A stretch of 63,913 nt of DNA from an uncultured Anaerolineae bacterium. Lineage in GTDB: Bacteria > Chloroflexota > Anaerolineae > Anaerolineales > Villigracilaceae. Of the stretch, positions 41,870-63,830 are shown one piece after another (the first letter of the stretch is position 1; every line of letters starts with the position of its first letter). Location of the stretch: the NCBI GenBank assembly GCA_903910795.1, contig CAIWAX010000251.1, forward strand, positions 1-63,913. Direction: 5' to 3'. The notes under the pieces were generated by a model. That model did no database searches. It had not been told where the DNA came from and worked only from the letters and a program-made list of their open reading frames with translations. The position numbers and the translations under genes are program-made.

Positions 41870-43447
41870 CTATTGAAAGGTACCCAGCACCCTGTCAACA
41901 TAATCGGACGCATTTTTACAGTTTCCCAACATCTGGGCAACAACTTGCTGCCAGGTGAGTTCAAGACCGTTTCCAGTGATGCTTTGAAGCGCGTTCCCGA
42001 TGCAGCCCGAACCCGCGTTGTAATTTCCGATCGTGATTTTCCACATTTCTTCGTACGTGGACTGCGCAGCCGGTTCCCGTCCTCCCGTGTTGACCACAAG
42101 TTGACCAACCTGCTTGGAACTGGCCAGAAGAGAGGCTGCCAGCATATCGATCTCATGCGGGGTGCCGACCTTGCTCAGCACTGCGTTGCGCAACATCAAG
42201 CGGGCGATCGGACTCAGGAGGGAATAGCCTGAAGAACAAGTGATGCGATCATAGGCCGGGATGCACAGGTCAAGGTAATAACTTGTATTCCACTTCAAAA
42301 GCATATCGGCGCCATTTTCGGTCATCCTGCCCAGGCCGAGTTCGTAAGGGTTGGTTTTAAGCGGCCAGAATTGTGATTCCTGTGAAAGGATGCCTTTTAA
42401 GATCATGGCCGGCACATTATATTTCAACGCCGCGGCAAAGATCTGATCGTTATATTTATTTTGCCAATCTAAAACCACTTTAGCGGTGGCTTCCTGCCCG
42501 CATTGCGAGGCTGTGCCATCCGGCATCAAACCATTGCCGGGACAGTTGGGGGCTTTTACCAACCCCATACTGATCAAATGACCACTCAGGAAAAGATAAT
42601 GGTTATTGGTGTACAGAGCATCCGAAGATGCCGGTTGGTTCAGTTGTTTCAAACCGGGTACTTCTGTGGGTAAGAACAGATTCCAATCCAGGGAGCCGGG
42701 CGGAATGGAAACAGCCCATTGTTTGTCAAGCATATCAAATCGGTAAATTTTTGAGCCCGGACTGATTGGCAGATAACGATATTTGATTTGAAAAAAGCGG
42801 CTGGCATCGTTATCATGGTTCGAAATTGCCCTGTAACCCAGCCAGGCTCCCTGGGCAGATGTGACAGGCAGTGAAATGAGCACATCCGAACCACTATGGA
42901 TACTGACCTGATCGTTAAACGAAATATAGATTTGTTCAATTTCAAAACCTTTGATGGGTTCGGTTGCCACAAAGTGCATTTGCGGGATCAGTTTACAGGG
43001 CTGCCAGGGGGTGCAGTTATTGATTTCAACCACAAAGCTTATTTCACTTTTGGTGTTGCCGTTGTGAATGAGCAGAGGTGTGGTGTTTTGCGGGGCAGGG
43101 GAAGTCTTTGTGGCGGCTGGCTGCATGTTTGCCAGGGCGCGCTTGACATAACTTTTTGACAACTCCTGGATTTCAATCATGGCTACCTGGTTGGGATTAA
43201 CATTCACCTGCGAAGGAGGCAGGCTGGTAGCGTAAGTGTTTGTCAGTACCCCCAGGGAAAGCAAGCAGGTAAATAGAACCGCCCAGAACAGACGCAACGA
43301 AATAACAACCCTGGATGCGAGCCTTCCACGGTTTGTCAATTGTCTAAGAAGGTTACGTCCGGATCGCCAATCCATTGATTGAGAGATATTTTCCCTGGTT
43401 AGCCCAGCGGTCGTTGAATGGCAAATTGGATCAAATTCATCCCCCAT
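41870..43447 (-). CDS. Membrane-anchored protein with C-terminal lytic-transglycosylase (SLT/GH23-like) domain
   Basis: TM anchor 'VVISLRLFWAVLFTCLLSLGVL'. 'ILKGILSQESQFWPLK...LGLGRMTENGA' resembles the SLT catalytic-Glu context. An alternative ATG at 43375 would remove the 49-nt overlap with the upstream gene. Confidence 0.55.
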   Translation of the reverse strand: MGDEFDPICHSTTAGLTRENISQSMDWRSGRNLLRQLTNRGRLASRVVISLRLFWAVLFTCLLSLGVLTNTYATSLPPSQVNVNPNQVAMIEIQELSKSYVKRALANMQPAATKTSPAPQNTTPLLIHNGNTKSEISFVVEINNCTPWQPCKLIPQMHFVATEPIKGFEIEQIYISFNDQVSIHSGSDVLISLPVTSAQGAWLGYRAISNHDNDASRFFQIKYRYLPISPGSKIYRFDMLDKQWAVSIPPGSLDWNLFLPTEVPGLKQLNQPASSDALYTNNHYLFLSGHLISMGLVKAPNCPGNGLMPDGTASQCGQEATAKVVLDWQNKYNDQIFAAALKYNVPAMILKGILSQESQFWPLKTNPYELGLGRMTENGADMLLKWNTSYYLDLCIPAYDRITCSSGYSLLSPIARLMLRNAVLSKVGTPHEIDMLAASLLASSKQVGQLVVNTGGREPAAQSTYEEMWKITIGNYNAGSGCIGNALQSITGNGLELTWQQVVAQMLGNCKNASDYVDRVLGTFQ

Positions 43448-44496
43448 TCGTGGGCGCTGCGAATATCTGAGCGCGAGGCATGTTCCGGGGGCAAGTCACC
43501 GTTCCAGGCCAGGCAGTAACCCGCCGTAGAATAGATCACCTGGCGGCTGACCATTACTTGATCTCCGAGCGCACCTTGAGGGGGTTTCATGAACAGGTAA
43601 GGTTCTTTCAAAATGGCCGAATCAGAAGACAGCGGGGCAAGCTTCACGTCCAATTTTTCAAAGAGGTTCGCGCAAGACTTACTGGCAGGGTCATCCAACG
43701 CCTCCACCAGCAGCTTTTTCCCACCGTCAAGCACGGCACGAAGTGCTTTTATTTCCGCGGTTCCCGCTTCAAATTCACCTTTGGCGCTGATAAACACAGC
43801 ATCAAAGGCAGCCAGGCTGCTTGTGAAGGTTGTGAATGTATCAACCACAGGATAAATTTTTAAAGAGCGTTCACATTCCCGGGCGAGATAATCCCATCCG
43901 GCAACAACTTCAGGAACCCTGGCACCCAGGCTGCAAAGTGCGACGCTTGTCCGCAATTTTGTTTGGGTAGCGATCATTTCTCTGTAACGCAAATCCAGTT
44001 CTTCGCTGCGCGGGTGCCCAGGATCGGCAGCATTTTTAATGGTTTTTCCTGATGCAGAGAGGGTTATTCTGGCAAGTTCAACTACCGGGCGCTTGGGCAG
44101 GCTGGAACGGGCCGCAATCACAAACTCGTTTTGAATGTACTTGATCTCCTGATCCACCCCTCCGATTTCGCGTTCGCCATGTACCAGCAGCAGGTACAGT
44201 GTTCCATCCGCGCTATTGCCAAAATCATAGGCGACTGGTTCAGGCAAAACGATCACATTCCCCACCGGATCAACCGCCGCGCCGGGTGAGATAAAAACCA
44301 TCTGGTTTGGCGGATCATTGGCCAGCACTTCGAGCCCCGCGATGATCCCACTGCCATGAAAGAGCAGATCATGTGCGCGTCTTGACTGGCGGTGTTCGTC
44401 ATGGGCTTCAGCCCATACGGCTGCCGAAACGGACATCCCATCGTAAGGTTTTACACGCATCTTTGGATAGATGGTTAATACGCTGTTGTCTTTCAT
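43399..44496 (-). CDS. Hypothetical CIS-associated protein (occupies the slot where a fibre or anchor gene is expected)
   Basis: 365-aa ORF tightly packed after the gpI-like baseplate gene. I recognised no fibre-like repeats or collagen/beta-helix motifs. Confidence 0.45.
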   Translation of the reverse strand: MKDNSVLTIYPKMRVKPYDGMSVSAAVWAEAHDEHRQSRRAHDLLFHGSGIIAGLEVLANDPPNQMVFISPGAAVDPVGNVIVLPEPVAYDFGNSADGTLYLLLVHGEREIGGVDQEIKYIQNEFVIAARSSLPKRPVVELARITLSASGKTIKNAADPGHPRSEELDLRYREMIATQTKLRTSVALCSLGARVPEVVAGWDYLARECERSLKIYPVVDTFTTFTSSLAAFDAVFISAKGEFEAGTAEIKALRAVLDGGKKLLVEALDDPASKSCANLFEKLDVKLAPLSSDSAILKEPYLFMKPPQGALGDQVMVSRQVIYSTAGYCLAWNGDLPPEHASRSDIRSAHEWGMNLIQFAIQRPLG

Positions 44497-44512: not shown

Positions 44513-45484
44513 TCAGGCTTTCGGGATGAATTCACAATTCAATTCAAAAGTGACGTGGGCAGGGATCTGGGTGCGCACAATCTCATTTATTTTACGCTGG
44601 TACATTTCCGGCGAGTATTTGGTGCGCTCCAGTTCTTCGTTGGGGATGCTCAGTTTGATGGACACAGAATTGGGAGAATTCTTTTTTCCCAGAGCCACTA
44701 CCACTCCCAGACTGGCATCTCCCAGTACAAAATTTTTGGCACGCCGTTCAGCGATTTCAACCTGCCCGGCTGTATAAATTTCAAGGTATTTTTTCAGGGC
44801 CGCAACTGTCCCGCGGCATTGTGAAATCTGCATGGCATTCTGGATCAACAACCGGTTTCGCTCTATGGGCAGGTGATTATCGATTGGCAGCCCCAGCCAG
44901 GATGCCAGCCAGGGCAAAAATTCACTGGGCGTCAACAAGGGATCGAAATACATTTCCACCTGGTCGACCTGCCGTGTGATAGGTTTCCAGAAACTCTCAA
45001 AAAGCATCAGAAAACGTGAGGTAAAGTCATCACTTTCGTAAATTTCGGGCAGATAATGTAGATAGGCTCCCTTGCCGATCACCGCCACGTTCAATTCTTC
45101 GGTATGAACGGGCTCAGTATCCTTGTTCAACAGGGTAGCCTGGATGATCAAATACTGGTCAATATAAAAGGTGTTGATACGCGAATGTACCGTCACAATG
45201 TATTCCTGCCCAACGACAAATTCCTCGTTGAGGGGAATGTATACGATCAATTCCTGTTCAGCTTCTATGACGGCAGGTTGAAGCACTGAACTGGAAGGGG
45301 AGACCTCGTAAGATTCAACCACCATCACCTTGGGCAAGGATAATTGCACCTTGGCATTGGGCAGGTCTGGAGCGGTGAAGCGTAGGAAAATCGTCAGCGC
45401 CTCGCCCGGGTAACGGTTGTAGAAATCCACTGCCAGGTCAAAATGGGTATCATTGATTGTTATCGCCGGCGCAGTCTTAGGCAT
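44513..45484 (-). CDS. Baseplate wedge protein, phage P2 gpI-like / Afp12-like
   Basis: 'YLHYLPEIYESDDFTSRFLMLFESFWKP...FDPLLTPSEFLPWLASWLGLP...QISQCRGTVAALKKYLEIY' matches the conserved phage-tail-protein domain found next to Baseplate_J genes. Confidence 0.7.
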   Translation of the reverse strand: MPKTAPAITINDTHFDLAVDFYNRYPGEALTIFLRFTAPDLPNAKVQLSLPKVMVVESYEVSPSSSVLQPAVIEAEQELIVYIPLNEEFVVGQEYIVTVHSRINTFYIDQYLIIQATLLNKDTEPVHTEELNVAVIGKGAYLHYLPEIYESDDFTSRFLMLFESFWKPITRQVDQVEMYFDPLLTPSEFLPWLASWLGLPIDNHLPIERNRLLIQNAMQISQCRGTVAALKKYLEIYTAGQVEIAERRAKNFVLGDASLGVVVALGKKNSPNSVSIKLSIPNEELERTKYSPEMYQRKINEIVRTQIPAHVTFELNCEFIPKA

Positions 45485-45489
45485 GCTGG

Positions 45490-47574
45490 TTAGCCCTTCT
45501 TATACGCAATCGTGATGTCCACGCACTCAATCTCGTGAGTGAGAGATAGCAGCAACCCATCATCGGGCAGTTGCAATACTTTGTCCACCGGGGTAAGAGG
45601 CACCTCGGCCACCTCTTCGGTGTTGTTGCTTTCCTCTACTGGCACGATCGGGCGAGAGGAAACTTCCACATCCAGCACATATTTAACGGTGGGTACCTGT
45701 TGGATCAGCGAGATAACCTCAGCCGTAAACAAATCGCGGCCGAAAGGCCAGCCCTCCCATTTTTCGCCGATCTGCAGCACAGGCTGCTTGTCATCGAAGA
45801 CCAGCGGGGCCAGGTAACGCTGCAGTTCTTCATTGACCTGGCGAGCAACCTCAGTGGGCGGAATGAAATCATGCGGCACAATGCGGGCTTTTACCTTGAC
45901 ACCGGTATAACGCGGTTCGCGAATATTGAGCGATGTGGTGATCAGACGGTACTTGTCCAGGTAAGTCCGTATTTCTTTCTGAAGCTTATCATCCAGGTGC
46001 AGGGACTTTATCGAGCCAGCCCTGAGAGAGTCGGGCACATCTGGAACAACCAGGATTGATACGGTGCCTGCAACTCCATTTGGATCATTGGGGGTCAGGC
46101 ACCTGGTACGTGCCACTGCCCGGCTGCAACTGAGTGTAAACTGCTCATAATCCTGGGCTGTCACTGCCCGGCGTTGAGCCTGAAGCTCACGTTGGGCGCG
46201 CATTTTCATCTCATCCAGGGTTTCCTGGTCTCGTCCGCTCACCGCCCGCGTCAGATTGGAAACACGCGACACGTAAGCCACAGACATGGACATGGTGGAC
46301 AGGCTCCCGATTGGAAGGTTTCCGCGCACACCGCCGCCGTAGCGATATCTTGAGAAGCGCACCTGGCGGCCGCTTTCTGGCGTGCGGCCGTACTGGATGA
46401 CGGTGCTATCCGGTTGGCGCACGGACGGGCCAAACCGGATCGTCCCGCTGTCCATATCCAGATGATAATGCCGGTCGAAGCGGGTTGATTTAGAAAAATC
46501 ATCAACCTGTTGCCAGGGCACAAAGACATCCTCGCCGTGCCGGGTTTCCTCCACCTCCAGTGTCTCACCGGCCCGCAGCGTCAGGATCGGTGAATGTGCC
46601 AGGGTAAATATCTGCCCGGCCTCACCGGTGCTCCTTCCAAGCGTTTCCGATTCAATGGCGACCGAGTGCATCGCAGTTGTTTTGGCGCCCAGGCTGTAGG
46701 CTTCCACACCGATAACCTTTGGGGATTCTGAATACATACCCTGCAGAGCATTGCGCTGTTCAATCCGGCAGCGCAGCCAGAAGGCATTGATACCGTGCAA
46801 GTTGGCGGGGTTGGCAGAAAGTGGTAAATAAAGCACGAGCTGACCAGTGGGATTGTTCAAACCACCGGTTGTATCCTTTTCGCCGTCTGCCGTGCTGAGC
46901 TTCAGCTCATGCCAGATGCCGTCCGCCGTCAGGCATTCCCAAATCCATGGCGGGTCTTCGCGGCGAATACCAACCGCCTCGGTTGGTTCGGCGGTGAAGT
47001 TTAGCCGCAAAATATGCCCGGAGATGTTGTGGTCGGGATCAAAACCCAGGTAAAAGGTATCACCCACCCTCGGTTCTCTCTGATCGAATGGGTAGAATAT
47101 TTCGATCCCCAGGCGGGATAAATAGTTCTTATTGAATTCCTGTTCTTTGCGCAGGTGGGTCAGCACCGGCGGGATAATCTCCAGGGTGGAATCCGAGGTG
47201 AACAAAACTTCTTCATCGGTCATCTCGGAGCGCACTTCGAAACCCTGTGGCACAGTCACCGTTTGGCGGTTTTCCCTGGAAAGCGGCAGGGGGGCGGAAA
47301 GCCAGAAGGTTAACTCGGTATGGGCGCTGCTGGCAGGCATGCGCTGCAGCCCCAGCATATCCAGGAATTTGAGGTAGTTCTTGTCTGGGACACGGTTCAG
47401 GCGGTAAACCATCAACTCGGTCATCCAGGCAAAAAGCTCGATCAATGTGATCCCGGGGTCGCTCAGGTTATATTCAGTCCATTCGGGACAGAAATTAATA
47501 ATGCGCCTGCGGGCTTCGTCAACCAGATCGCTTTGAAAACGCAGGTCATCCAGATTCGGGGCGGGTAAGGTCAT
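45490..47574 (-). CDS. Baseplate J-like protein (T4 gp6 / Afp11-like)
   Basis: 'LDDLRFQSDLVDEARRRIINFCPEWTEYNLSDPGITLIELFAWMTELMVYRLNRVPDKNY' is the typical N-terminus of CIS baseplate assembly proteins. 694 aa. Confidence 0.85.
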   Translation of the reverse strand: MTLPAPNLDDLRFQSDLVDEARRRIINFCPEWTEYNLSDPGITLIELFAWMTELMVYRLNRVPDKNYLKFLDMLGLQRMPASSAHTELTFWLSAPLPLSRENRQTVTVPQGFEVRSEMTDEEVLFTSDSTLEIIPPVLTHLRKEQEFNKNYLSRLGIEIFYPFDQREPRVGDTFYLGFDPDHNISGHILRLNFTAEPTEAVGIRREDPPWIWECLTADGIWHELKLSTADGEKDTTGGLNNPTGQLVLYLPLSANPANLHGINAFWLRCRIEQRNALQGMYSESPKVIGVEAYSLGAKTTAMHSVAIESETLGRSTGEAGQIFTLAHSPILTLRAGETLEVEETRHGEDVFVPWQQVDDFSKSTRFDRHYHLDMDSGTIRFGPSVRQPDSTVIQYGRTPESGRQVRFSRYRYGGGVRGNLPIGSLSTMSMSVAYVSRVSNLTRAVSGRDQETLDEMKMRAQRELQAQRRAVTAQDYEQFTLSCSRAVARTRCLTPNDPNGVAGTVSILVVPDVPDSLRAGSIKSLHLDDKLQKEIRTYLDKYRLITTSLNIREPRYTGVKVKARIVPHDFIPPTEVARQVNEELQRYLAPLVFDDKQPVLQIGEKWEGWPFGRDLFTAEVISLIQQVPTVKYVLDVEVSSRPIVPVEESNNTEEVAEVPLTPVDKVLQLPDDGLLLSLTHEIECVDITIAYKKG

Positions 47575-47588: not shown

Positions 47589-48002
47589 TCAGGGAAGTTC
47601 TTGTTCGTCAGCGATATAGAATGGGTAAACAATGCTGCGAGTATCGTGGGTGGATTTGATCTGATATCGAATTTCTGCCAGAAGAATGCCGGTCTGTCCA
47701 TCTTCAGATGAAACAGTGACGTTCAACACTTCGATACGGGGTTCCCACATGCGCAGGGCCTCGTAGACGTAATCCTGCAGCATACTGATCGTGCCCGCTG
47801 TGCGGGGTTCAAAGAGCAGTTCATTGGCCCGGCATCCAAAGGTGGGGCGCATGACCCGTTCTCCGGGTGTGGTGCTGATGATAATGCGGATGGATTGATC
47901 AATATCCTCGCTGCCCGTGACAAGCACGATCTGTCCGCGGGCATCGGTGCGAAGAGGAAAACTCAAACCATTCCCCAAAAATGTTTTAGCATTCTGCGGC
48001 AT
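47589..48002 (-). CDS. gp25-like baseplate wedge protein (GPW_gp25 / Afp9-like)
   Basis: 'FLGNGLSFPLRTDARGQIVLVTGSEDIDQSIRIIISTTPGERVMRPTFGCRANELLFEP'. I started it at ATG 48002. The longer ORF-track model (to 48419) overlaps the PAAR gene in another frame. Confidence 0.85.
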   Translation of the reverse strand: MPQNAKTFLGNGLSFPLRTDARGQIVLVTGSEDIDQSIRIIISTTPGERVMRPTFGCRANELLFEPRTAGTISMLQDYVYEALRMWEPRIEVLNVTVSSEDGQTGILLAEIRYQIKSTHDTRSIVYPFYIADEQELP

Positions 48003-48031
48003 ACCTGTTCTCCAATCCCAATCATACTGAG

Positions 48032-48331
48032 TTATCCACCGATCATTACTGTGAAACAGCCGCTCACAATCGAATCGGGTGGGCCAACACAAACGCACAT
48101 CCCGCCCATAACGGCTGCTGGCAGCCCGCCAATCAAGACGGTCGGCATACCGGGCGGCATGATCGGCCCGCCGACATGCGGGATGGGCGGCACCCCCGGA
48201 GTTTGCATGGGGCACACATGCATATCGCTGATGCGAGCCGCCGGTTGTCCGCCGATCAACACGGTCGGGCAACCCATTACAATTTTTCCACCGTGGGCAG
48301 TTGAGTCGCCCAGTCGCGCAGCAGGAGGCAT
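48032..48331 (-). CDS. PAAR-domain spike-tip protein (Afp10-like)
   Basis: 'PPAARLGDSTAHGG...VLIGGQPAARISD...VLIGGLPAA...VMIGG' are PAAR repeats. 99 aa with no toxin extension. Confidence 0.85.
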   Translation of the reverse strand: MPPAARLGDSTAHGGKIVMGCPTVLIGGQPAARISDMHVCPMQTPGVPPIPHVGGPIMPPGMPTVLIGGLPAAVMGGMCVCVGPPDSIVSGCFTVMIGG

Positions 48332-58010: not shown

Positions 58011-58934
58011 TTATACCTGAATATCGTATCCATCAGGGGCTGGCACAAGAATTTTTTGACGTTTGAGAACCTTCTTGTTAAAAAGAATATCGATATGATA
58101 TTCTCCTTCCACAATTCCATGCAGTGCATAATTTCCCTGTGCGTCGATCTGGAGCGGCGCCTGTTTTTCCACCAAAATGGCGGAGAGGGTCGAGAGGTCA
58201 TATTTATCACTGCGAATCTTCCCGGTCGCGGCAAAATAAGATTTTGAGCTGGCTAGGGTAACCTCCACCTGGCTTTCCTGCCCGTCCGGGCCCTCTAGGT
58301 ATCCTGTGGGTGTGCTGGCAGCGGGCGGTCGGCCGTACGTAGCCTGTGGTTTGGATGTGTCCTGGAAGACGCTCAATTCGCGGGTACTGACCTTCTTGAC
58401 GGTGATCGGTTTGTAGGGGTCCATCGTGACGGTCACAATCACCATCACAGCCGGGCGCATTTCGTTATCCAGCACGCCCCACAGCTCTGAAAATTTATCC
58501 ATCGGGCCCTGTTCATTGGGGAAATTGGCTACTTCAATTGGTATTTGCGTGGGCTGGCTGCGCAAACTCTCTGGCAGGAGATCCTCTGGCACAAATGGAT
58601 TGCGAAACAGACCCATCAGCGCGTTGGAGAGCAGGATATGCTCATCTTCAGCCTCCTTGACCCAGGCGGTCAGCAAGTAGCGCAACGAGATGTGCACCGG
58701 GTTACGGTGGATATCGGCGCTGCCATCGTCGCGCGCGACGGTGCGATATTGTTCCGAACCGCGCAGACGCAGGTTCTCACGAATATCGAAGAGATACAGG
58801 TTTATGGTGGGCTTGCTCAAGCGTGATGACCATTCGCGTTTGGGCATGTCGAACTGAACATCGATCTCGTTGCCCTTAATATCGATCTCACGGATCAACA
58901 GCTTGCGCAGAACTTCATCCACATCCGCAATCAT
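58011..58934 (-). CDS. DUF4255 (Pvc16_N) tail terminator/cap protein (Afp16-like) with C-terminal CarboxypepD_reg-like beta-sandwich
   Basis: 'IADVDEVLRKLLIREI...VQFDMPKREWSSRLSKPTINLYLFDIRENLRLR' is the DUF4255 signature. C-terminal 'GNYALHGIVEGEYHIDILF'. Confidence 0.85.
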   Translation of the reverse strand: MIADVDEVLRKLLIREIDIKGNEIDVQFDMPKREWSSRLSKPTINLYLFDIRENLRLRGSEQYRTVARDDGSADIHRNPVHISLRYLLTAWVKEAEDEHILLSNALMGLFRNPFVPEDLLPESLRSQPTQIPIEVANFPNEQGPMDKFSELWGVLDNEMRPAVMVIVTVTMDPYKPITVKKVSTRELSVFQDTSKPQATYGRPPAASTPTGYLEGPDGQESQVEVTLASSKSYFAATGKIRSDKYDLSTLSAILVEKQAPLQIDAQGNYALHGIVEGEYHIDILFNKKVLKRQKILVPAPDGYDIQV

Positions 58935-59208: not shown

Positions 59209-61617
59209 TCAAATTAGTTTTTCATCATCCGTTGGTACCTTTTCTTCTTCTTTCACTTCTTCCTTTGGCGCCTTGTCTTCCTCTTTCACTTCTTCCTTTG
59301 GCGCCTTGTCTTCCTCTTTTATTTCTTCCTTTGTATTCGTTGAATTGCCAGTCTGTATTGGAATCGTTGAAATGTCAGGCTCTATTGGGTCATTTGACTT
59401 GTTAGTCTGGACTTGATCCGTTAAAGTCGGCGACGGGGTTTTGGGCAGAGATGGCATCGTCATAGGCTTGGGCAGGTTTTTTGGCTTGGGCCAGGAGCTC
59501 TTCGGCTTGGGGGACAGCGGTTTCCTTGGTTTGGGTGGAATCGTTGGTAATTTGCGCTTGTCTTTGGCGTTGGCCTTTTTCATCATCAAGTCATGGGCCA
59601 TTTTCGGATTGGAGTAAATGCCAGATTCTGGAGCATCCTTCGAGTTGGCTTGTTTCACCATTAAATCGTGATTGCCCTTCGCGTTGGCCCGTTTCATCAT
59701 TACGTCATGCGCCGTTTTCGGATTGGAGTACATATCTGACTCGGGCGCATCCTTCGCGTTGGCCTGCGTTTTCATCTGGGTAAAGGCTGTCTGTGCGCCT
59801 TCCGCCTCTTTGTCACGTTTATCTTTTTCTCGCTTTGACACCATCTCGTCAGTTTCGGGCGGCACCCAGCGCTTGTCTTCCTTGGGTTTGGGTTGGAGCC
59901 CGGGTTTATATTTTTTCTGGTTCTCTTCAAACCTGGCTTCTGAACCCGTGGAAGTAACGCCTTCGCCTTTTTTCGGTGCGTCGTGCCCTTCTTTCTTGGG
60001 CGCGTCGTGCCCTTCTTTCTTGGGTGCATCGTGTCCCGTGGTGGAACCTTCTTCAGACTTGGAGCCACCCGACTTGGAAATTTGGGCTTTCAGATTCTCA
60101 TTTTCCTTCATCACGTCAAAAAGCTTTTTGTAAACGTCACCGCCACCGCCACCGCCGCCACCGACGTCCTTGCCGCCATGCTCGCCGCCACCTTCGTGAC
60201 CAGTGCCCTCTTTACCGCCACCTTCCTTGCCGCCATGAGCGTCCTCTTTTCCGCCTTCTTTTTCTTCAGGTTTCTTGCCCAGGAAGTGGTCCTTATATTC
60301 GCTGCCAAGCTGCTTGCCCTGTTCTTTCACGGCTCCGCCCACAGCACCACCAATCTTCCCCAGCAGGCCGCCCAGGGCGCCCTTAATCTTGGATCCGGTC
60401 GAATTCTTTTTGCGCTCTTCCTTCTCAGCCATCATGGTTTTAAAGGCGTTATCATCGCCGCCCTTGGCGGAAGCCTCCAGGTTTTTCTTGCGGGCTGACA
60501 TGGCTTGCTTGGCATAGCTGCGGCCATCCTTGCCGCGCGTCAGCTTGGCTTTAAGGGTTTCCATTTTTCCGCGCTTGTGTAGAACATTCAGTTTCTGCTG
60601 AGCCAGCTTGGCATCTTCCGTGCTGGTGGATGGATCCTTGAGCTTGGCCATCAGCGCTTCGCGGGAATTGTTGACATTGTTCTTTTTCGATTCTTCCTTA
60701 TAGGAAGAATGCAGATCCTGGGCTCGATCCTTTTCCTTCTCGTTCCGCTCGGAGACGTCTGTTTTCTTGAGGTTCGCCAGAGCCTCCATCGGGTTGCTGC
60801 CCAATGATTTGGTTTTTATAGGTTCAGATGGCTTGCCAGTTCCAAGTTTCGGAGCTGGCCCGATGGGCGGGGCGGGAATAGGGGCGGGAGCCTTTTTCTT
60901 TTTGAACTTATCCAGGAATCCCGTCGACAATCTCTGGATGGTGCCACCGGCATGTAGCTGGCGTTGGACAGCTTTGCCAGCCCCCGCAGCGGCCCTGGCG
61001 GTAGGATTGGCGGCGCCTTTGCTCTTGCTGACCTTTTCCGCTTCCTTTTCCATGGCAGTGTCCGGCGCGCCCAGCTTCAGTTGCGCGCTGCCACCCTGGC
61101 TGCCCGACTGCTGGGCAACATGTGTCAATTCATGCATCAGGGTTTCGCGGCCCTGGCTGGTACCCGGTTCGAAGACACCCTCTTTAAAGAAGATGTCCGA
61201 ACCAATCGTAAAGGCGCGCGCGCTGATCGACCGGTTCAACTGGTCGGCTTTGGCATCCGTATGCACACGCACATCCGAAAAACTGCGTCCCATCTTCTGC
61301 CCGACTTCCTTGCGGATATTGCCAGGCAGAGGGCTGCCGCTGCCGCGTTTTTGCTGGATTTGCTGCGCGAGATCCTTGCGCAAATTTCCCTGTTGGTCGG
61401 CAGCTTGATCGCTGTGCTGATGGGAATCCAGCGCGCGCTGCACCACCTGGTTGCCCACCTGCTTCTGCGCCCCAATCACATCCTCGGATCGCATGGTTTC
61501 GGGGGCCTGCATCAACTGCGCCGGGTTCAGGCTGGCTTTTTGCTTATGCTCTGTTTTGGCTGACTTGATGACGGCCTTGGCCGGGCTGCTTTGGTGAGAT
61601 TTTTGCATATTAGACAT
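59209..61617 (-). CDS. DUF4157-domain protein (HExxH metallopeptidase-like) with long Lys/Glu/Gly-rich repetitive tail: candidate CIS cargo/effector
   Basis: 'GSPLPGNIRKEVGQKMGRSFSDVRVHTDAKADQLNRSISARAFTIGSDIFFKEG...ETLMHELTHVAQQ' is the DUF4157 core. Downstream repeats include 'GHDAPKKE' x3, 'KEEVKEEDKAP' x2 and 'ANAKDAPESxxYSNPKxAHDxMMK' x2. Confidence 0.8.
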   Translation of the reverse strand: MSNMQKSHQSSPAKAVIKSAKTEHKQKASLNPAQLMQAPETMRSEDVIGAQKQVGNQVVQRALDSHQHSDQAADQQGNLRKDLAQQIQQKRGSGSPLPGNIRKEVGQKMGRSFSDVRVHTDAKADQLNRSISARAFTIGSDIFFKEGVFEPGTSQGRETLMHELTHVAQQSGSQGGSAQLKLGAPDTAMEKEAEKVSKSKGAANPTARAAAGAGKAVQRQLHAGGTIQRLSTGFLDKFKKKKAPAPIPAPPIGPAPKLGTGKPSEPIKTKSLGSNPMEALANLKKTDVSERNEKEKDRAQDLHSSYKEESKKNNVNNSREALMAKLKDPSTSTEDAKLAQQKLNVLHKRGKMETLKAKLTRGKDGRSYAKQAMSARKKNLEASAKGGDDNAFKTMMAEKEERKKNSTGSKIKGALGGLLGKIGGAVGGAVKEQGKQLGSEYKDHFLGKKPEEKEGGKEDAHGGKEGGGKEGTGHEGGGEHGGKDVGGGGGGGGDVYKKLFDVMKENENLKAQISKSGGSKSEEGSTTGHDAPKKEGHDAPKKEGHDAPKKGEGVTSTGSEARFEENQKKYKPGLQPKPKEDKRWVPPETDEMVSKREKDKRDKEAEGAQTAFTQMKTQANAKDAPESDMYSNPKTAHDVMMKRANAKGNHDLMVKQANSKDAPESGIYSNPKMAHDLMMKKANAKDKRKLPTIPPKPRKPLSPKPKSSWPKPKNLPKPMTMPSLPKTPSPTLTDQVQTNKSNDPIEPDISTIPIQTGNSTNTKEEIKEEDKAPKEEVKEEDKAPKEEVKEEEKVPTDDEKLI

Positions 61618-61639
61618 ATAAGCTCTCCATTGTCAACTA

Positions 61640-63769
61640 TTATAAGACAAAATCAGCATCCTGTACCAATTTACCCATTTTTTGTATTTCGCGTTTGGCG
61701 CCGTGCAGCAAATGGGTCATGTTGACCACGCCGCCGTCGGCGGCGGCCACATAGGCGGCGCTGACGATAATATTGCGAATATTGCCGCCCGATAGTTTGA
61801 AACGTTTGGCCATCAGGGGCAGATCGAGATCGGGAACGATGGGAAGATCGGGCGGCATGAGGACTTTCCAGATGCGCAGGCGATATTCTTCATCCGGGAA
61901 AGGAAAATTAATAATGAACTGCAGGCGCCGGGTGAAGGCTTCATCCAGGTTGGCGCGCAGGTTGGTGGCCAGGATGGCCACCCCGCTGTAGCTTTCCATG
62001 CGTTGCAGCAAATAGCCGACTTCAATGTTGGCGTACCGATCATGCGCATCCTTGACCTCGGAACGCTTGCCAAAGATGGCATCCGCTTCATCAAAAAAAA
62101 GGATGGCGTTGCTCGAGGAGGCTTCGGTAAAAATGTGTTCCAGGTTTTTTTCGGTTTCGCCGATGTACTTGCTGACCATGGTGGAGAGATCGATACGATA
62201 AAGATCGATGCCAAGCTGATTGGCCATGATCTGGGCGGCCAGGGTTTTGCCCGTGCCGGGAGGCCCGGAGAAAAGCGCCGAGATGCCCGCCCCGGCAGTC
62301 AATTTTCGTCCCAAACCCCAAGTATCCAGCACCAAGGGCCGCAGCCTGACCATGTCGACCATTTCTTTGAGCATATCGGTGGCGGTCTTTGGCACGACCA
62401 GATCTTCCCACGAATAACGCGGTTCAATCTTGTGGGTCAGTTCGTCCAGATGGTGCTCAGAATGAAAACGGGCCGCGCTGAACAGGTCGACCATCTCCAG
62501 AGAACGCTCTTCCTGCAAGGCGTGTGACATGGCGGTGGAGGCTGCCGCCACAATCTGCCCACTGCTCAGATTAAACTGTCCGGCCAGGATACTCATTTCG
62601 TTTTCCAGCAGGTTATCATCCACGCCAGCCACCGCAGAGGACCATAGATCAGCCCGTTCGGCGGCGCTCAGTTCCGTGAAGGGCACATGCATCAACGGGT
62701 AATCATTGCCAGCCATGTCCGGGTTGAATTTAAAGGGACGCTGGCTGCCGATCAGCGTGCAATCACCGGTCTGTCGCAAAAGATTGAAGATGCTGGTGAG
62801 CAGACAACCATTGCCATCTATTAGCGTATCACAATCGCTGAGGTAAATCAATGCCTTCTGCAGGCGCGCATCCCTGACAGCCAGGCTGACGATGTGAATG
62901 GCAGAATCGGCCTGATCATCGGGCGAAAGCCTGACCAGCAGCAGCGCGCGCCCCAGGCTGGCGGCTACCTGCCGGGCGGACAGTTGTTTCAGCAAGGCAT
63001 CGCCGCCCTGCAGCGAAATGAATGGCCGCGCGGAATCCAAAACACTTGCGGCGGGCAGCCTGGCGGGTGTCTCTACGTCGGCAGCCTCATCGAAGATCAG
63101 TTCCGCGCGGCCAGCCAGCGCGGCGGAGGTGGTGTAATGTCCCAGCAGCCAGTCGATCAACCCGTCCGAGATTTGAAAAGCCTGGCGCAGCCGGTTGAAT
63201 GGTTTTCCGGGCTCTTCCACCGCTTCCAGCAGCCTGGAATAGATCAGCGGAGCATCGGGGTTAAAGGAGTTGAGCGCATCCAGGCGCGCCAGCCCTTCGG
63301 GCATCAGCAGTCCGAGGATCAGGTTCGCACTGGCATACGTGCGGGTGACATCATCTTGCAAATAACTGTAAATACGTTCGTAGCGCAAATCCAGGCCGGG
63401 TGCCAGGCACACGATCAGCGCCCACCACTCAAAGTCACTCAGCGAAAAAATTTCTTTCAACTGCTTCAGGCGCAGGCGCACATTTTGCGCATCAGCCTGT
63501 TCTTCAACTTCCCGGATGCGTTCCGTGGCGCGCTCCAGGGCCTGCTGCAGTGTCCGTTCATCTTCTTCCGGCAGGCTTGTGCCGCCGGCGCCCCGCTGGG
63601 TCAGCGCCAACGCATCGGTATCCGAAATATACAAGCCTCTGAAGCGGTCATTCGGGTTCTGCCCGGCAATCTGCCACCGCCGGACTTCCAGTTCCAGGCG
63701 CGCGTCCAGCCAGGAAAGGGTGACCTGCAGGTATTGGCGTTCAAGTGTGACCGGTTCAGTCTTCGTCAT
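61640..63769 (-). CDS. CIS AAA+ ATPase (Afp15/Pvc15-like, CDC48-type C-terminal module)
   Basis: Walker A 'GPPGTGKTLAAQ', Walker B 'ILFFDEADAIFGKR', 'ILATNLRANLDEAFTRRL'. Start set at ATG 63769 (MTKTEPV...). The ORF-track GTG at 63814 would translate the tandem repeat. Confidence 0.9.
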   Translation of the reverse strand: MTKTEPVTLERQYLQVTLSWLDARLELEVRRWQIAGQNPNDRFRGLYISDTDALALTQRGAGGTSLPEEDERTLQQALERATERIREVEEQADAQNVRLRLKQLKEIFSLSDFEWWALIVCLAPGLDLRYERIYSYLQDDVTRTYASANLILGLLMPEGLARLDALNSFNPDAPLIYSRLLEAVEEPGKPFNRLRQAFQISDGLIDWLLGHYTTSAALAGRAELIFDEAADVETPARLPAASVLDSARPFISLQGGDALLKQLSARQVAASLGRALLLVRLSPDDQADSAIHIVSLAVRDARLQKALIYLSDCDTLIDGNGCLLTSIFNLLRQTGDCTLIGSQRPFKFNPDMAGNDYPLMHVPFTELSAAERADLWSSAVAGVDDNLLENEMSILAGQFNLSSGQIVAAASTAMSHALQEERSLEMVDLFSAARFHSEHHLDELTHKIEPRYSWEDLVVPKTATDMLKEMVDMVRLRPLVLDTWGLGRKLTAGAGISALFSGPPGTGKTLAAQIMANQLGIDLYRIDLSTMVSKYIGETEKNLEHIFTEASSSNAILFFDEADAIFGKRSEVKDAHDRYANIEVGYLLQRMESYSGVAILATNLRANLDEAFTRRLQFIINFPFPDEEYRLRIWKVLMPPDLPIVPDLDLPLMAKRFKLSGGNIRNIIVSAAYVAAADGGVVNMTHLLHGAKREIQKMGKLVQDADFVL

Positions 63770-63830
63770 GGTAATCCAGGTTTCTGCACGGGATGGTAAT
63801 CCAGGTTTATGCACGGGATGGTAATCAAAC
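63769..63830 (-). repeat. 2.5 x 25-nt tandem unit abutting the ATPase start codon
   Basis: tggtaatccaggtttctgcacggga / tggtaatccaggtttatgcacggga / tggtaatcaaac. Same family as 56111-56160. Confidence 0.85.

What the first reader, a model, noticed from the sequence alone, without database searches (positions are those of the whole stretch)
41870..63830. Complete contractile injection system operon with no recognisable tail fibre and ATPase-first gene order
About 18 co-directional, tightly packed minus-strand genes supply every core CIS part. In order they are:
- AAA+ ATPase (Afp15-like)
- DUF4157 protein
- DUF4255 cap (Afp16-like)
- sheath
- two gp19-like tubes
- chaperone-like protein
- a 45-aa ORF
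- a third tube-like protein
- tape-measure-like protein
- LysM protein
- VgrG
- PAAR
- gp25
- Baseplate_J
- gpI-like protein

No capsid, portal, terminase, integrase or lysis cassette is present in the window. That argues for a tailocin/eCIS-type machine rather than a prophage. I could not recognise any fibre or receptor-binding gene (Afp13 equivalent). The slot after the gpI-like gene holds an unassignable 365-aa protein and a membrane-anchored SLT-domain protein.

Fibre-less loci with this gene order resemble, as far as I recall, the cytoplasmic or membrane-anchored CIS described in Streptomyces and cyanobacteria rather than Afp/PVC. This locus could therefore be an uncharacterised intracellular or envelope-attached CIS variant.
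Basis: partly seen in the sequence, partly recalled or inferred. Interest (0 to 1): 0.8.

Follow-up and report, generated by a model that had tools for sequence, protein, structure and literature searches.

The report
Streptomyces-type injection system with membrane module
This is a complete phage-tail-like injection machine in the chromosome of an uncultured Anaerolineae (Chloroflexota) bacterium, related to the cell-internal systems of Streptomyces, whose "missing tail fibre" is a short TssK-like adaptor that always travels with a set of membrane and FHA-domain genes, which suggests the machine is docked to the cell's own membrane.

Summary
Every core contractile-injection-system (CIS) call passes HMM tests, the genes are co-directional and tightly packed, and no capsid, terminase, portal or integrase lies in the window or in the 10 kb beyond its edge.

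- **Host and lineage.** The host is an Anaerolineae (Chloroflexota) MAG. Sheath and Baseplate_J are closest to the solved Streptomyces cytoplasmic CIS (subtype IId), a lineage already imaged in other Chloroflexota.
- **Fibre-slot protein.** The "unassignable" 365-aa protein has a TssK / phage-RBP-shoulder / tCIS-Cis19-like N-domain and a DUF4159 (GIFT-like) head. It follows the gpI gene, directly or with one gene between, in all 32 related loci examined. It is a stub adaptor, not a long fibre.
- **SLT protein.** The 525-aa protein is a signal-anchored, Cys-rich lytic-transglycosylase-like exoprotein.
- **Locus boundary.** The locus is cut by the window edge. Upstream of the ATPase lie at least three further genes: a TM protein (partly seen), a 2,702-aa FHA–TM–Ig-repeat protein and an SBP-like lipoprotein. 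Related loci add an FHA protein. The same module sits directly after the 365-aa gene in other Anaerolineae.
- **Gene order.** "ATPase-first" is therefore partly an artefact.
- **Side finding.** The tail chaperone carries a conserved −1 frameshift site (G GGG GGG).

Verdict: a new variant of a known kind, moderately interesting.

The parts
61640..63769 (-). AAA+ ATPase (Afp15/Cis15-like), 709 aa
   Evidence: Pfam WHD 5.6e-37 and AAA 6.7e-29. The 709-aa form is the one found on public contigs. The 724-aa GTG form is not on record.
59209..61617 (-). DUF4157/eCIS_core protein, 802 aa, with an intact HExxH motif at aa 162 and a long K/G/A/E-rich low-complexity tail. It is a candidate cargo or effector.
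   Evidence: Pfam eCIS_core 2.5e-28. HELTH motif and composition. The protein is 827 aa on the same organism's contig from another sample.
58011..58934 (-). Cap / tail terminator (Pvc16_N, Cis16-like)
   Evidence: Pfam Pvc16_N 2.4e-34.
56198..57859 (-). Contractile sheath (Cis2-like), 553 aa
   Evidence: Pfam Phage_sheath_1 plus Phage_sheath_1C. Best solved relatives are the Streptomyces CIS sheaths 8bky/9gtp (1.9e-156) and 8bl4 (1.4e-153), both over the full length.
55649..56095 (-). Inner tube protein (gp19-like, Cis1)
   Evidence: Pfam Phage_T4_gp19 1.2e-31.
55001..55480 (-). Second gp19-like tube protein (tube adaptor, Cis5-like)
   Evidence: Pfam Phage_T4_gp19 2e-15. NCBIfam CIS5_fam hit at 3.8e-6, below cut-off.
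54585..54950 (-). Tail assembly chaperone, 121 aa. It is the most conserved protein seen in the related loci (77-89 % identity).
   Evidence: PHROG 508 'tail assembly chaperone' 5.4e-9. Conservation.
54427..54594 (-). Slippery run G GGG GGG (54588-54594) directly before the chaperone stop codon, followed by a conserved 53-aa ORF in the -1 frame. This is a predicted G/GT-type programmed -1 frameshift extension.
   Evidence: Sequence read. In 12 of 12 loci a run of 7-8 G lies 0-9 nt before the stop and a conserved -1 frame ORF follows.
54285..54422 (-). Conserved 45-aa micro-protein with a C-terminal helix motif that is shared with the C-terminus of the 937-aa protein
   Evidence: Called as a gene on public contigs. 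An equivalent ORF with the same motif occurs in 11 of 11 related loci.
53746..54273 (-). Third gp19-like tube-family protein (tube initiator, Cis1b-like)
   Evidence: Pfam Phage_T4_gp19 5.4e-23.
50936..53749 (-). 937-aa P/A/S-rich protein in the tape-measure slot. It contains an internal direct repeat of about 57 aa (two copies). Only about 11-26 % of it aligns with related loci at E<=1e-5.
   Evidence: No Pfam, NCBIfam or PHROG hit. Composition P16 A14 S11 %. Sequence. Coverage in relatives.
50249..50917 (-). Tube initiator / baseplate hub (CIS_tube, Afp7/Cis7-like)
   Evidence: Pfam CIS_tube 1.7e-26.
48346..50205 (-). VgrG-like spike (Cis8)
   Evidence: Pfam Phage_base_V 1.3e-18. Phage_GPD 5.5e-6 is below cut-off.
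48032..48331 (-). PAAR spike tip (Cis10)
   Evidence: Pfam PAAR_motif 1.6e-23.
47589..48005 (-). gp25-like sheath initiator (Cis9)
   Evidence: Pfam GPW_gp25 1.5e-24.
45490..47574 (-). Baseplate wedge protein Baseplate_J (Cis11)
   Evidence: Pfam Baseplate_J 6.7e-16. Best solved relative is Streptomyces Cis11, 9gtp_1K, at 1.3e-115 over aa 1-638.
44513..45484 (-). gpI / TssG-type wedge protein (Cis12), with an N-terminal extension of about 140 aa
   Evidence: Pfam Tail_P2_I 1.2e-12. TIGR02242 1.5e-29 and CIS12_fam 8e-23, the latter below cut-off. Streptomyces 9gtp_E matches at 5.3e-12 over aa 143-246.
43399..44496 (-). Fibre-slot protein, 365 aa. Its N-terminal domain (aa 1 to about 175) is a TssK / RBP-shoulder / Cis19-like baseplate-attachment domain. 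Its C-terminal domain (aa about 180-362) is a DUF4159 (GIFT / flavodoxin-like) head. No TM segment or signal peptide is predicted.
   Evidence: AF2 model with pLDDT 95.7. Foldseek hits to TssK 5y0e/6n38/5mwn (7e-6 to 1e-4), Anabaena Cis19 7b5h (9e-4) and 4i66 (5.8e-10). Profile hits to 4i66 (3e-7), IFT52 (5e-6) and All3314 aa 31-90 (2.2e-5). Phage tail-fibre and RBP hits. CIS13_fam weak hit. Synteny.
41870..43372 (-). Exported, signal-anchored Cys-rich protein with a C-terminal lytic-transglycosylase (SLT)-like domain, about 500 aa
   Evidence: A single N-terminal TM segment is predicted in the window protein and in all 13 homologues examined. The motifs ESQ(F)W, GLG..T and NYxAGSG and many Cys residues are invariant or nearly so in the 13-sequence alignment. 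Pfam SLT hits only weakly, at 0.0039. The family comprises 39 proteins; the two that carry an organism name are an Anaerolineaceae MAG and an unclassified bacterium.

Best explanation
The window holds 18 of about 21-22 genes of a chromosomal, Streptomyces-type (dbeCIS IId-like) contractile injection system of an uncultured Anaerolineae bacterium.

Proposed assembly and action:
1. The particle is built in the cytoplasm from these parts: spike (VgrG and PAAR); hub and three tube-family proteins; wedges made of gp25, Baseplate_J and gpI; sheath; Pvc16 cap. Assembly is helped by an Afp15-like AAA+ ATPase, a frameshifting tail chaperone and a proline-rich protein in the tape-measure slot.
2. In place of a long fibre, the wedge carries the 365-aa protein. 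Its TssK / RBP-shoulder-like N-domain binds the gpI/TssG-type wedge protein, probably as trimers. Its DUF4159 head points outward.
3. That head is proposed to couple the baseplate to a dedicated membrane module that always accompanies this CIS clade. The module comprises a soluble FHA protein, a polytopic TM protein, a giant protein (FHA, cytoplasmic Ig-like domains, TM, then more than 2,000 aa of extracellular Ig repeats), an SBP-like lipoprotein, and the exported SLT-like protein encoded in the window.
4. The machine would therefore fire at the producer's own cytoplasmic membrane. The FHA domains (phospho-threonine readers) and the extracytoplasmic sensor-like parts would gate docking or firing. 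The transglycosylase would open the peptidoglycan locally.

Shown here: the gene content, the homologies, the fold of the 365-aa protein, the strict synteny, and fusions of FHA domains to 365-aa-type proteins.

Inferred only: the physical docking, the direction of firing (outward into a neighbour, or self-lysis as in Streptomyces) and the cargo.
For: - Core parts pass HMM tests.
- Nearest solved relatives of sheath, Baseplate_J and gpI are all from the Streptomyces CIS 8bky/9gtp.
- The host is Anaerolineae.
- The 365-aa protein follows the gpI gene in 28 of 28 genome loci, and directly or with one gene between in 4 of 4 distant metagenomic loci.
- Its N-domain family has 1,464 clusters at 50 % identity. 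Of 36 diverse members, 31 keep the DUF4159 head.
- The high-confidence model (pLDDT 95.7) matches TssK, Anabaena Cis19 and phage RBP shoulders.
- Two family members carry an N-terminal FHA domain. Others carry a trimeric-type coiled coil between shoulder and head.
- On the same organism's contig, the 370-aa TM protein, the 2,702-aa FHA-TM-Big_3_5 protein and the 438-aa ANF_receptor-like lipoprotein lie directly upstream of, and co-directional with, the ATPase.
- The same module lies upstream of the ATPase in 4 further metagenome loci. It lies directly downstream of the 365-aa gene in at least 16 other loci; in two of these an SBP-like gene and then a 525-aa-like gene follow the module.
- All 8 metagenome loci with enough flank that encode the giant protein's N-terminal region also hold CIS genes.
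- The 525-aa protein has a conserved signal anchor and SLT catalytic motifs.
- Precedents exist. CisA, a membrane protein encoded after Cis12, is needed for firing in Streptomyces (PMC12237407). A lineage-specific membrane protein marks T6SS-like haloarchaeal CIS (PMC11566945). eBAP3 fibres that follow Tail_P2_I are TssK-like (PMC12923769).
Against: - No protein-protein contact was tested.
- No homology to TssJ, TssL or TssM, or to CisA, was found.
- The cytoplasmic tail of the 525-aa protein is only about 17-20 residues, so it cannot itself be a CisA-like recruiter.
- The module's position relative to the ATPase could be checked in only 5 loci of the window's sub-clade.
- DUF4159/GIFT domains have been proposed to bind sugars, which would suit an extracellular receptor-binding role instead.
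- The locus keeps cap, chaperone and tape-measure-slot genes, which are typical of free particles of fixed length.
Confidence: 0.55

Rival explanations
1. It is a classical extracellular CIS or tailocin. Particles are released by lysis of the producer. The 365-aa protein is a minimal tail fibre or 'tail pin' whose DUF4159/GIFT head binds a sugar on a target cell. The signal-anchored SLT protein is the lysis or release enzyme. The FHA/TM/Ig genes only regulate expression or are neighbours by descent.
For: - The N-domain fold is that of phage receptor-binding proteins and tail fibres.
- Some relatives have a coiled-coil shaft between shoulder and head, like short fibres.
- The head is related to the IFT52 GIFT domain, a domain class proposed to bind sugars (my recollection of the literature).
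- The locus has cap, chaperone and tape-measure-slot genes, typical of free particles of fixed length.
- An exported muralytic enzyme sits at the operon end.
Against: - The head domain is conserved across the whole family (31 of 36) rather than swapped, unlike receptor-binding domains, which diversify rapidly (PMC12923769).
- No holin or spanin-like partner was seen, and the SLT protein has a 280-aa Cys-rich middle domain unlike endolysins.
- FHA domains are fused to the 365-aa-type protein in two relatives, which places it in the cytoplasm next to signalling proteins.
- The membrane module keeps strict linkage in two different gene arrangements.
- The closest characterised relatives act inside the cell (PMC10066040, PMC12998442).
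Confidence: 0.2
2. It is a free-floating cytoplasmic CIS exactly like Streptomyces, Roseiflexus and Deinococcota systems. The 365-aa protein is only a structural decoration of the wedge. The membrane and FHA genes act, at most, as a remote stress sensor without physical docking.
For: - Sheath and baseplate proteins are closest to CIS-Sc.
- IId particles in Chloroflexota and Deinococcota were imaged unattached in the cytoplasm (PMC12998442).
- No fibre shaft is present.
Against: - Streptomyces loci have no gene between Cis12 and CisA (PMC12237407, PMC10020575), so the TssK-like protein is an addition specific to this clade.
- TssK-type shoulders are connectors in every solved context: T6SS baseplate to membrane complex, tCIS crown, and phage RBPs.
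- Even in Streptomyces, firing needs a membrane protein (PMC12237407).
Confidence: 0.2
3. It is a defective myovirus prophage tail module.
For: All tail-like parts derive from phage tails. A G/GT-type frameshifting chaperone is a phage hallmark.
Against: - No capsid, portal, terminase, integrase or lysis cassette was found among the 30 larger ORFs scanned in the other 42 kb of the window, nor in the 10 kb beyond the ATPase.
- The eCIS-specific genes Pvc16_N, eCIS_core and the Afp15-like ATPase are present.
- The locus is conserved in order across 28 Anaerolineae genomes.
- Third-position composition is near that of neighbouring host genes.
Confidence: 0.02

Closest known systems
Streptomyces coelicolor cytoplasmic CIS (CIS-Sc, dbeCIS subtype IId; PDB 8bky, 9gtp) with its membrane factor CisA
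   Same: - Sheath (1.9e-156), Baseplate_J (1.3e-115) and the gpI/Cis12 core (5e-12) find this system as their best solved relative.
- The cap gene precedes the sheath, the baseplate genes come last, and a membrane protein with a carbohydrate-related exodomain sits at the 3' end (PMC12237407, PMC10020575).
- No Afp13-type fibre is present.
- The host is filamentous.
   Different: - This locus has an extra TssK-like 365-aa gene between Cis12 and the membrane protein.
- The membrane protein here has a very short cytoplasmic tail and an SLT-like domain. CisA has a roughly 285-aa cytoplasmic region and an SBP-like or sugar-binding C-terminal domain.
- This locus has PAAR, a frameshifting chaperone, a 937-aa protein in the tape-measure slot and a DUF4157 protein without a TM segment.
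- An FHA/TM/giant-Ig/lipoprotein module accompanies this locus; the Streptomyces papers read here do not describe one.
Roseiflexus / Chloroflexota-Deinococcota cytoplasmic CIS clade (PMC12998442)
   Same: Same phylum, same IId-type affiliation, and intracellular particles are expected.
   Different: Those particles were imaged unanchored. That paper, as read here, makes no mention of tail fibres or Cis13, and TssK, FHA and DUF4159 were not searched in it. The hosts are Chloroflexia, Thermogemmatispora and Deinococcota, not Anaerolineae. Direct sequence comparison was not possible with the tools at hand.
T6SS baseplate adaptor TssK with TssG (PDB 5y0e, 6n38, 5mwn, 6giy)
   Same: The N-domain of the 365-aa protein has the TssK shoulder fold (Foldseek 7e-6 to 1e-4, probability 1.00). 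It is encoded next to a TssG/gpI-type wedge gene. Accessory FHA proteins, a lipoprotein and a peptidoglycan-cutting enzyme are also typical companions of T6SS.
   Different: - No TssJ, TssL, TssM, TssA or ClpV is present.
- The head is DUF4159, not the TssK head.
- The particle keeps eCIS features: Pvc16 cap, Afp15-like ATPase, chaperone, tape-measure-slot protein and DUF4157.
Anabaena thylakoid-anchored CIS crown protein Cis19/All3314 (PDB 7b5h), and the eBAP3/eBAP4 fibre attachment domains (PMC8894136, PMC12923769)
   Same: The family profile matches All3314 residues 31-90 in register (2.2e-5) and the fold matches too (9e-4). eBAP3 and eBAP5 fibres likewise follow Tail_P2_I genes, and eBAP3 fibres are described as TssK-like.
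   Different: Cis19 is 1,476 aa with flexible distal domains. eBAP3 fibres carry variable lectin, Ig or enzyme modules, whereas here a single conserved DUF4159 head follows. Neither Chloroflexota nor DUF4159 appears in the held text of that catalogue's supplements.
Haloarchaeal T6SS-like CIS with the membrane protein Hbor_38620 (PMC11566945; sheath 9ezm)
   Same: It is an eCIS-type gene set converted to membrane attachment by a lineage-specific membrane protein encoded beside the cluster. Its sheath is the third-ranked solved relative, after the two Streptomyces sheaths (1.3e-112).
   Different: The anchor candidates are unrelated (a six-TM protein there, the FHA/TM/Ig module here). The haloarchaeal cluster lacks a Cis19 homologue.

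Membership tests
Contractile injection system of the eCIS/Afp-PVC gene-set type | Sheath, tube, gp25, Baseplate_J, gpI-type wedge, VgrG spike and PAAR | tested here: met
   All pass Pfam cut-offs, except that Phage_GPD in VgrG is weak.
Contractile injection system of the eCIS/Afp-PVC gene-set type | eCIS-specific markers: Pvc16_N cap, Afp15-like AAA+ ATPase and DUF4157/eCIS_core | tested here: met
   Pvc16_N 2.4e-34; WHD plus AAA; eCIS_core 2.5e-28.
Contractile injection system of the eCIS/Afp-PVC gene-set type | No head, packaging or integration genes (distinguishes it from a prophage) | tested here: met
   Pfam scans of 30 of the larger ORFs in the remaining 42 kb, and gene calls for the 10 kb upstream on contig L034, show none.
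dbeCIS subtype IId / Streptomyces-type cytoplasmic CIS | Sheath and Afp11 cluster with IId references in a phylogeny | tested here: inconclusive
   No tree could be built. As a proxy, the best solved relatives of sheath, Baseplate_J and gpI are all from CIS-Sc, with large margins (525 bits against 380 for the next system).
dbeCIS subtype IId / Streptomyces-type cytoplasmic CIS | No conventional Afp13 tail fibre | tested here: met
   The fibre-slot protein models as two compact domains without a shaft. It does retain a fibre-type attachment domain.
dbeCIS subtype IId / Streptomyces-type cytoplasmic CIS | CisA homologue encoded after Cis12 | not testable with these tools
The 525-aa protein is a positional and topological analogue only (TM segment plus carbohydrate-active exodomain), with a much shorter cytoplasmic part (PMC12237407).
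dbeCIS subtype IId / Streptomyces-type cytoplasmic CIS | Particles free in the cytoplasm, firing linked to cell death | not testable with these tools
   This needs cryo-ET and genetics.
Type VI secretion system | TssK-type adaptor on a TssF/TssG-type wedge | tested here: met
   Foldseek hits to TssK 5y0e, 6n38, 5mwn and 6giy. The gene is adjacent to the gpI/Tail_P2_I gene.
Type VI secretion system | TssJ-TssL-TssM membrane complex, TssA and ClpV; no tape measure | tested here: not met
   Pfam scans of locus and module proteins gave no T6SS membrane-complex families. The ATPase is Afp15-like. A chaperone and a tape-measure-slot protein are present.
eBAP3/eBAP4-type CIS fibre (PMC12923769) | An N-terminal shoulder-like domain of about 200 aa, encoded directly after Tail_P2_I | tested here: met
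   Position confirmed in 31 of 32 loci, with one intervening gene in the other. Fold and profile match TssK and Cis19. The published eBAP3 model itself was not available for a direct comparison.
eBAP3/eBAP4-type CIS fibre (PMC12923769) | A variable C-terminal receptor-binding module | tested here: not met
   The C-terminal module is the same DUF4159 domain in 31 of 36 diverse members.
Tail assembly chaperone with programmed -1 frameshift (lambda G/GT type) | A slippery heptamer near the 3' end, a conserved -1 frame extension, and a position upstream of the tape-measure gene | tested here: met
   phrog_508 hit. G GGG GGG sits directly before the stop codon in the window, and a conserved 52-53-aa -1 ORF follows in 12 of 12 loci. 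Translation of the fusion was not tested.

The most novel reading that the evidence does not exclude
Anaerolineae have independently turned a Streptomyces-type, fixed-length CIS into an envelope-docked, T6SS-like firing platform.

- A TssK-like adaptor with a DUF4159 head links the baseplate to a new membrane complex.
- That complex consists of an FHA protein, a polytopic TM protein, a giant FHA-TM-Ig-repeat surface protein, an SBP-like lipoprotein and a dedicated lytic transglycosylase.
- Docking or firing is controlled by threonine phosphorylation and by an extracellular ligand.
Probability: 0.3. Interest if true: 0.8.

Novelty: new variant of a known kind. Interest (0 to 1): 0.6.

Why it matters
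How fibre-less, Streptomyces-type CIS find and fire at a membrane is an open question. CisA is required in Streptomyces, but no physical link to the baseplate has been shown.

This Anaerolineae clade offers a more explicit parts list:
- a conserved TssK-like adaptor in the fibre slot;
- natural fusions of that adaptor to FHA domains;
- a five-gene membrane-associated module, including the exported SLT-like protein, that stays linked to the CIS in two different gene arrangements.

That makes the docking and triggering hypothesis directly testable by multimer modelling, pull-downs and cryo-ET. One carrier, Ornatilinea apprima P3M-1, is cultured.

It would also be a further independent case of an eCIS-type machine acquiring a T6SS-like connection to the envelope, in a phylum with an atypical cell wall.

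The conserved -1 frameshift in the CIS chaperone links CIS assembly to the phage G/GT paradigm.

Tried and rejected
1. A first AlphaFold run of the 365-aa protein used 27 close homologues. It left the N-domain unfolded (pLDDT below 50) and gave only generic flavodoxin matches. A 116-sequence alignment of distant relatives solved this.
2. An exact look-up of the 724-aa ATPase failed because the start codon was wrong. The 709-aa form worked.
3. A profile of the 525-aa family against PDB sequences found nothing. Its SLT assignment rests on conserved motifs and a weak Pfam hit.
4. Literature searches for DUF4159 with CIS, for FHA/TssK with Chloroflexota, and for CIS with Anaerolinea found no description of this module. 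The held supplement text of the fibre catalogue contains neither DUF4159 nor Chloroflexota.
5. A search for extra shoulder-domain paralogues among downstream genes found none.
6. The +1-frame ORF at 54449-54670 overlapping the chaperone was rejected as non-coding because of its R/G/A/P-rich composition. The conserved extension is in the -1 frame.
7. Promoter and terminator scans were no better than shuffled sequence.
8. A profile search of the large protein database with A4 returned only close relatives and no new taxa.
9. PDB sequence searches with the FHA protein, the TM protein and the giant protein's N-region gave only sub-threshold FHA matches.
10. The adenylate cyclase-AAA-TPR gene downstream was considered as part of the locus. 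It was rejected because it has no counterpart in any related locus.

Full report
**Observation.**
The minus strand between 41870 and 63769 carries 18 co-directional ORFs, plus a conserved -1 frame extension. Gaps between consecutive ORFs range from -4 to 274 nt.

Pfam confirms every core assignment above the curated cut-offs:
- WHD plus AAA (ATPase)
- eCIS_core/DUF4157
- Pvc16_N
- Phage_sheath_1 plus Phage_sheath_1C
- three Phage_T4_gp19 proteins
- CIS_tube
- Phage_base_V (VgrG)
- PAAR_motif, at 48032-48331
- GPW_gp25, at 47589-48005
- Baseplate_J
- Tail_P2_I

The 121-aa 'chaperone-like' protein matches PHROG 508, a tail assembly chaperone (5.4e-9). The 937-aa protein has no family match. It is P/A/S-rich and occupies the tape-measure slot.

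The larger ORFs in the rest of the window encode ordinary cellular functions, and none encodes a phage head, packaging or integration function:
- hydrogenase- and NADH-dehydrogenase-like genes
- an IS66 transposase
- a MoxR-DUF58-BatA/VWA operon
- three LysM/M23 peptidases
- SPFH proteins
- a subtilase
- an adenylate cyclase-AAA-TPR protein

**Host and genomic context.**
The sheath and ATPase proteins occur with identical sequence on metagenome contigs. Homologues of the 365-aa protein are annotated from Chloroflexota and Anaerolineaceae MAGs. A genome scan found 28 loci, all in Anaerolineae, including the cultured Ornatilinea apprima P3M-1. Third-codon-position composition of the locus is close to that of neighbouring genes.

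On the 59-kb contig from the same organism, the 10 kb beyond the window edge hold no phage genes. They hold three further co-directional genes:
- a TM protein called as 370 aa on the contig, of which only the last 61 codons lie in the stretch fetched
- a 2,702-aa Big_3_5 protein
- a 438-aa ANF_receptor-like lipoprotein

**Lineage.**
Against all solved structures, the sheath is closest to the Streptomyces CIS sheaths: 8bky/9gtp at 1.9e-156 and 8bl4 at 1.4e-153, both over the full length. Next come the haloarchaeal T6SS-like CIS (9ezm, 1.3e-112) and, far lower, Anabaena tCIS, AlgoCIS, PVC and Afp.

Baseplate_J matches Streptomyces Cis11 at 1.3e-115. The gpI core matches Streptomyces Cis12.

The Streptomyces system is the reference for dbeCIS subtype IId. 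It acts from the cytoplasm and needs the membrane protein CisA, encoded directly after Cis12 (PMC10066040, PMC12237407, PMC10020575). IId-type CIS of other Chloroflexota (Roseiflexus, Thermogemmatispora) and of Deinococcota were recently imaged as unattached cytoplasmic particles (PMC12998442).

**The fibre-slot protein (43399-44496).**
- *Family size and architecture.* It has more than 190 close homologues. A profile of its N-terminal 182 residues finds 1,464 clusters at 50 % identity, mostly 360-420 aa long. Of 36 diverse members, 31 also carry the C-terminal DUF4159 domain. It is a conserved two-domain protein, not a scaffold with swapped tips.
- *Position.* It follows the gpI gene in 28 of 28 genome loci and in four distant metagenomic loci, one of them with a single intervening gene.
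- *Model.* A shallow alignment failed to fold the N-domain. A 116-sequence alignment gave a model with mean pLDDT 95.7.
- *N-domain.* Foldseek matches it to the TssK shoulder (5y0e, 6n38, 5mwn, 6giy; 7e-6 to 8e-4) and to Anabaena Cis19/All3314 (7b5h, 9e-4). It also matches many phage tail-fibre and receptor-binding proteins. The family profile matches All3314 residues 31-90 in register (2.2e-5). NCBIfam's CIS13 family hits weakly in register.
- *C-domain.* It matches 4i66 (Hoch_4089; 5.8e-10 by fold, 3e-7 by profile) and the IFT52 GIFT domain.
- *Localisation.* No TM segment or signal peptide is predicted.
- *Variants.* Some family members insert a coiled coil between the two domains. Two carry an N-terminal FHA domain.
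- *Conclusion.* The protein is the fibre-slot, TssK/Cis19-like baseplate adaptor with a compact head. This fits the recent description of eBAP3-type, TssK-like fibres that follow Tail_P2_I genes (PMC12923769). It differs in that its distal domain is conserved rather than variable.

**The SLT protein (41870-43372).**
Thirteen homologues from related loci share four features:
- a single N-terminal hydrophobic anchor after a short, arginine-rich tail
- a Cys-rich middle region
- a C-terminal domain with invariant or near-invariant ES, GLG..T and NYxAGSG motifs, typical of family-1 lytic transglycosylases
- a position directly after the 365-aa gene in the 13 genome loci where it was found

Pfam SLT itself hits only weakly. 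The family is small (39 proteins). No organism outside Anaerolineae is named for it, but only two of the 39 carry any organism name. It is an exported enzyme. Because of its short cytoplasmic tail it is only a positional analogue of CisA.

**The accessory module.**
- *Where it sits in more distant loci.* In more distant Anaerolineae and Caldilineaceae loci, the genes after the 365-aa homologue are, in order:
  - an FHA/YscD-like protein of about 372 aa
  - a protein of about 370 aa with TM helices at both ends
  - a giant protein
  - a Peripla_BP_6/ANF_receptor-type lipoprotein
  - in two loci, a 525-aa-like protein
- *Architecture of the giant protein.* It has an N-terminal FHA domain, cytoplasmic Ig-like domains, a TM segment at about residue 355-392, and 1,500-2,300 residues of Big_3_5 repeats.
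- *Relation to the window's organism.* The 2,702-aa protein upstream of the window's ATPase is a clear relative of these giants (31-34 % identity over about 900 residues, E as low as 1e-130).
- *Test of linkage.* A metagenome scan with the giant's N-terminal region returned 20 loci. All eight with enough flank also hold CIS genes. In four the module lies before the ATPase, as in this organism. In four it lies after the 365-aa gene. Re-screening all loci confirmed the two arrangements.
- *Left boundary.* In one locus a glucose-6-phosphate dehydrogenase gene lies about 0.7 kb upstream of the FHA gene, with no other large ORF between them.
- *Consequence.* The system has about 21-22 genes, and the window cuts it. 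'ATPase-first' is therefore partly an artefact. The Streptomyces cluster also places the cap (SCO4260) before sheath and tube (SCO4253/4252) and the baseplate (SCO4248-4243).

**Mechanism.**
- *Shown here:* homology of all parts, the adaptor fold, strict gene linkage in two arrangements, and domain fusions of FHA to the adaptor.
- *Inferred:* the adaptor trimers sit on the gpI/TssG-type wedge. Their DUF4159 heads connect the baseplate to the cytoplasmic portions of the membrane module. FHA domains and the extracytoplasmic lipoprotein and Ig-repeat parts gate docking or firing. The transglycosylase opens the wall locally.
- *Unknown:* whether firing is outward into a neighbour (T6SS-like) or kills the producer (as in Streptomyces and proposed for Anabaena).
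- *Cargo candidates:* the DUF4157 protein with an intact HExxH motif, and the 937-aa protein. No recognised toxin domain was found.

**Rivals.**
- An extracellular tailocin with a minimal sugar-binding pin and a release enzyme (0.2).
- A free-floating cytoplasmic CIS without docking (0.2).
- A defective prophage (0.02).

**Comparison and novelty.**
The locus is a member of the eCIS-type CIS class and most probably of subtype IId. It is not a T6SS: no TssJLM, TssA or ClpV is present, while a cap, a chaperone and a tape-measure-slot protein are.

No paper searched describes any of the following:
- the conserved shoulder-plus-DUF4159 adaptor
- its linkage and fusion to FHA proteins
- the FHA/TM/giant-Ig/lipoprotein/SLT module

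I rate it a new variant of a known kind.

**Side findings.**
- *Frameshift in the chaperone.* The chaperone gene ends ...CTG GGG GGG TAA, and a 53-aa ORF follows in the -1 frame. Both the G-run and the ORF are conserved in 12 of 12 loci. This predicts a lambda G/GT-type programmed frameshift.
- *The 45-aa ORF.* It is conserved in 11 of 11 loci and shares a helix motif with the C-terminus of the 937-aa protein.
- *Unusual codon usage at the window start.* The first 6 kb of the window have cytosine at 55 % of third codon positions, against 33 % in the genes that follow.

Noticed in passing
window 54427-54594 (minus strand): The tail assembly chaperone gene ends ...CTG GGG GGG TAA. The G7 run (54588-54594) is a perfect X XXY YYZ slippery site. 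A 53-aa ORF in the -1 frame (VTGYPLELLHQEVAYIAYYFHW...RRRWVKEIAEINKRLNQGA) fills the apparent 162-nt gap before the 45-aa ORF. Both the G-run and the -1 ORF are conserved in 12 of 12 related loci. This predicts a G/GT-type programmed frameshift in a CIS.
   Followed up: yes
window 54285-54422 and 50936-51020 (minus strand): The 45-aa ORF is conserved in 11 of 11 related loci. Its C-terminal motif (LAxK[IV]xxLLRxE[LI]E[IL]ExERxG) recurs at the extreme C-terminus of the 937-aa tape-measure-slot protein (MAEKILPIVKRMLQIEAERSG). This suggests a shared binding site, for example for the spike/hub or the chaperone.
   Followed up: partly
beyond the window's right edge; locus L034 1-9682: Three co-directional genes precede the ATPase on the same organism's contig: a TM protein called as 370 aa (only its last 61 codons fetched), a 2,702-aa FHA-TM-Big_3_5 protein, and a 438-aa ANF_receptor-like lipoprotein. 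They belong to a module that is always linked to this CIS clade.
   Followed up: yes
window 59209-61617 versus L034 12153-14636: The DUF4157 protein is 802 aa in the window but 827 aa on the contig from another sample (97 % identity). This is a length polymorphism in its K/E/G-rich repeat tail, which includes HDAPKKEG x3 and KEEDKAPKEEV repeats.
   Followed up: no
window 50936-53749: The 937-aa protein contains a near-perfect internal direct repeat of about 57 aa (…RLPLAVPVKSELP[DE]AG[AP]NQG[IT]QARHPAAP…RKKLSAPK[TA]PRLPVARPT…). It is 16 % proline, so it is unlikely to be the usual alpha-helical tape measure.
   Followed up: no
window 1-6100: The eight plus-strand genes at 248-6025 have cytosine at 55 % of third codon positions, against 33 % in the genes that follow. 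They encode luciferase-like monooxygenase, pentapeptide, DRTGG, CBS-HATPase, PHP and 2Fe-2S thioredoxin-like proteins. The bias gives a GC skew of about -0.27. The segment is compositionally distinct, and its origin is unexplained.
   Followed up: partly
window 14735-16216: An IS66-family transposase lies next to a NiFeSe-hydrogenase-like ORF (13206-14633). That ORF matches the hydrogenase model in two stretches, the best covering profile positions 1-77 of 508. The insertion may have disrupted the hydrogenase / NADH-dehydrogenase-like cluster at 4838-14633.
   Followed up: no
window 17310-21305 (minus strand): A MoxR (AAA_3) - DUF58 - two BatA/VWA gene operon. From my recollection, stand-alone DUF4159 proteins are often annotated near such Bat operons. 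Here DUF4159 appears instead as the head of the CIS adaptor. No link was tested.
   Followed up: no
window 23415-28372: Three tandem paralogous proteins of about 500-550 aa with Peptidase_M23 domains (two also have LysM). They are candidate peptidoglycan hydrolases and are not conserved next to related CIS loci.
   Followed up: no
window 38143-41610 (minus strand): A 1,155-aa protein with zinc-ribbon, adenylate/guanylate cyclase, AAA_16 and TPR domains lies 259 nt downstream of, and co-directional with, the CIS operon. It has no counterpart in any related locus, so it is probably not part of the system.
   Followed up: partly
loci L026, L027, L029, L030 and L032 (downstream of the 365-aa homologue): In Caldilineaceae-type loci, one or two PKMT-like methyltransferase genes (Methyltransf plus MethyTransf_Reg plus winged helix) are inserted between the adaptor gene and the FHA module. 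VWA plus Big_7 proteins also appear. These are further lineage-specific accessories of unknown role.
   Followed up: no
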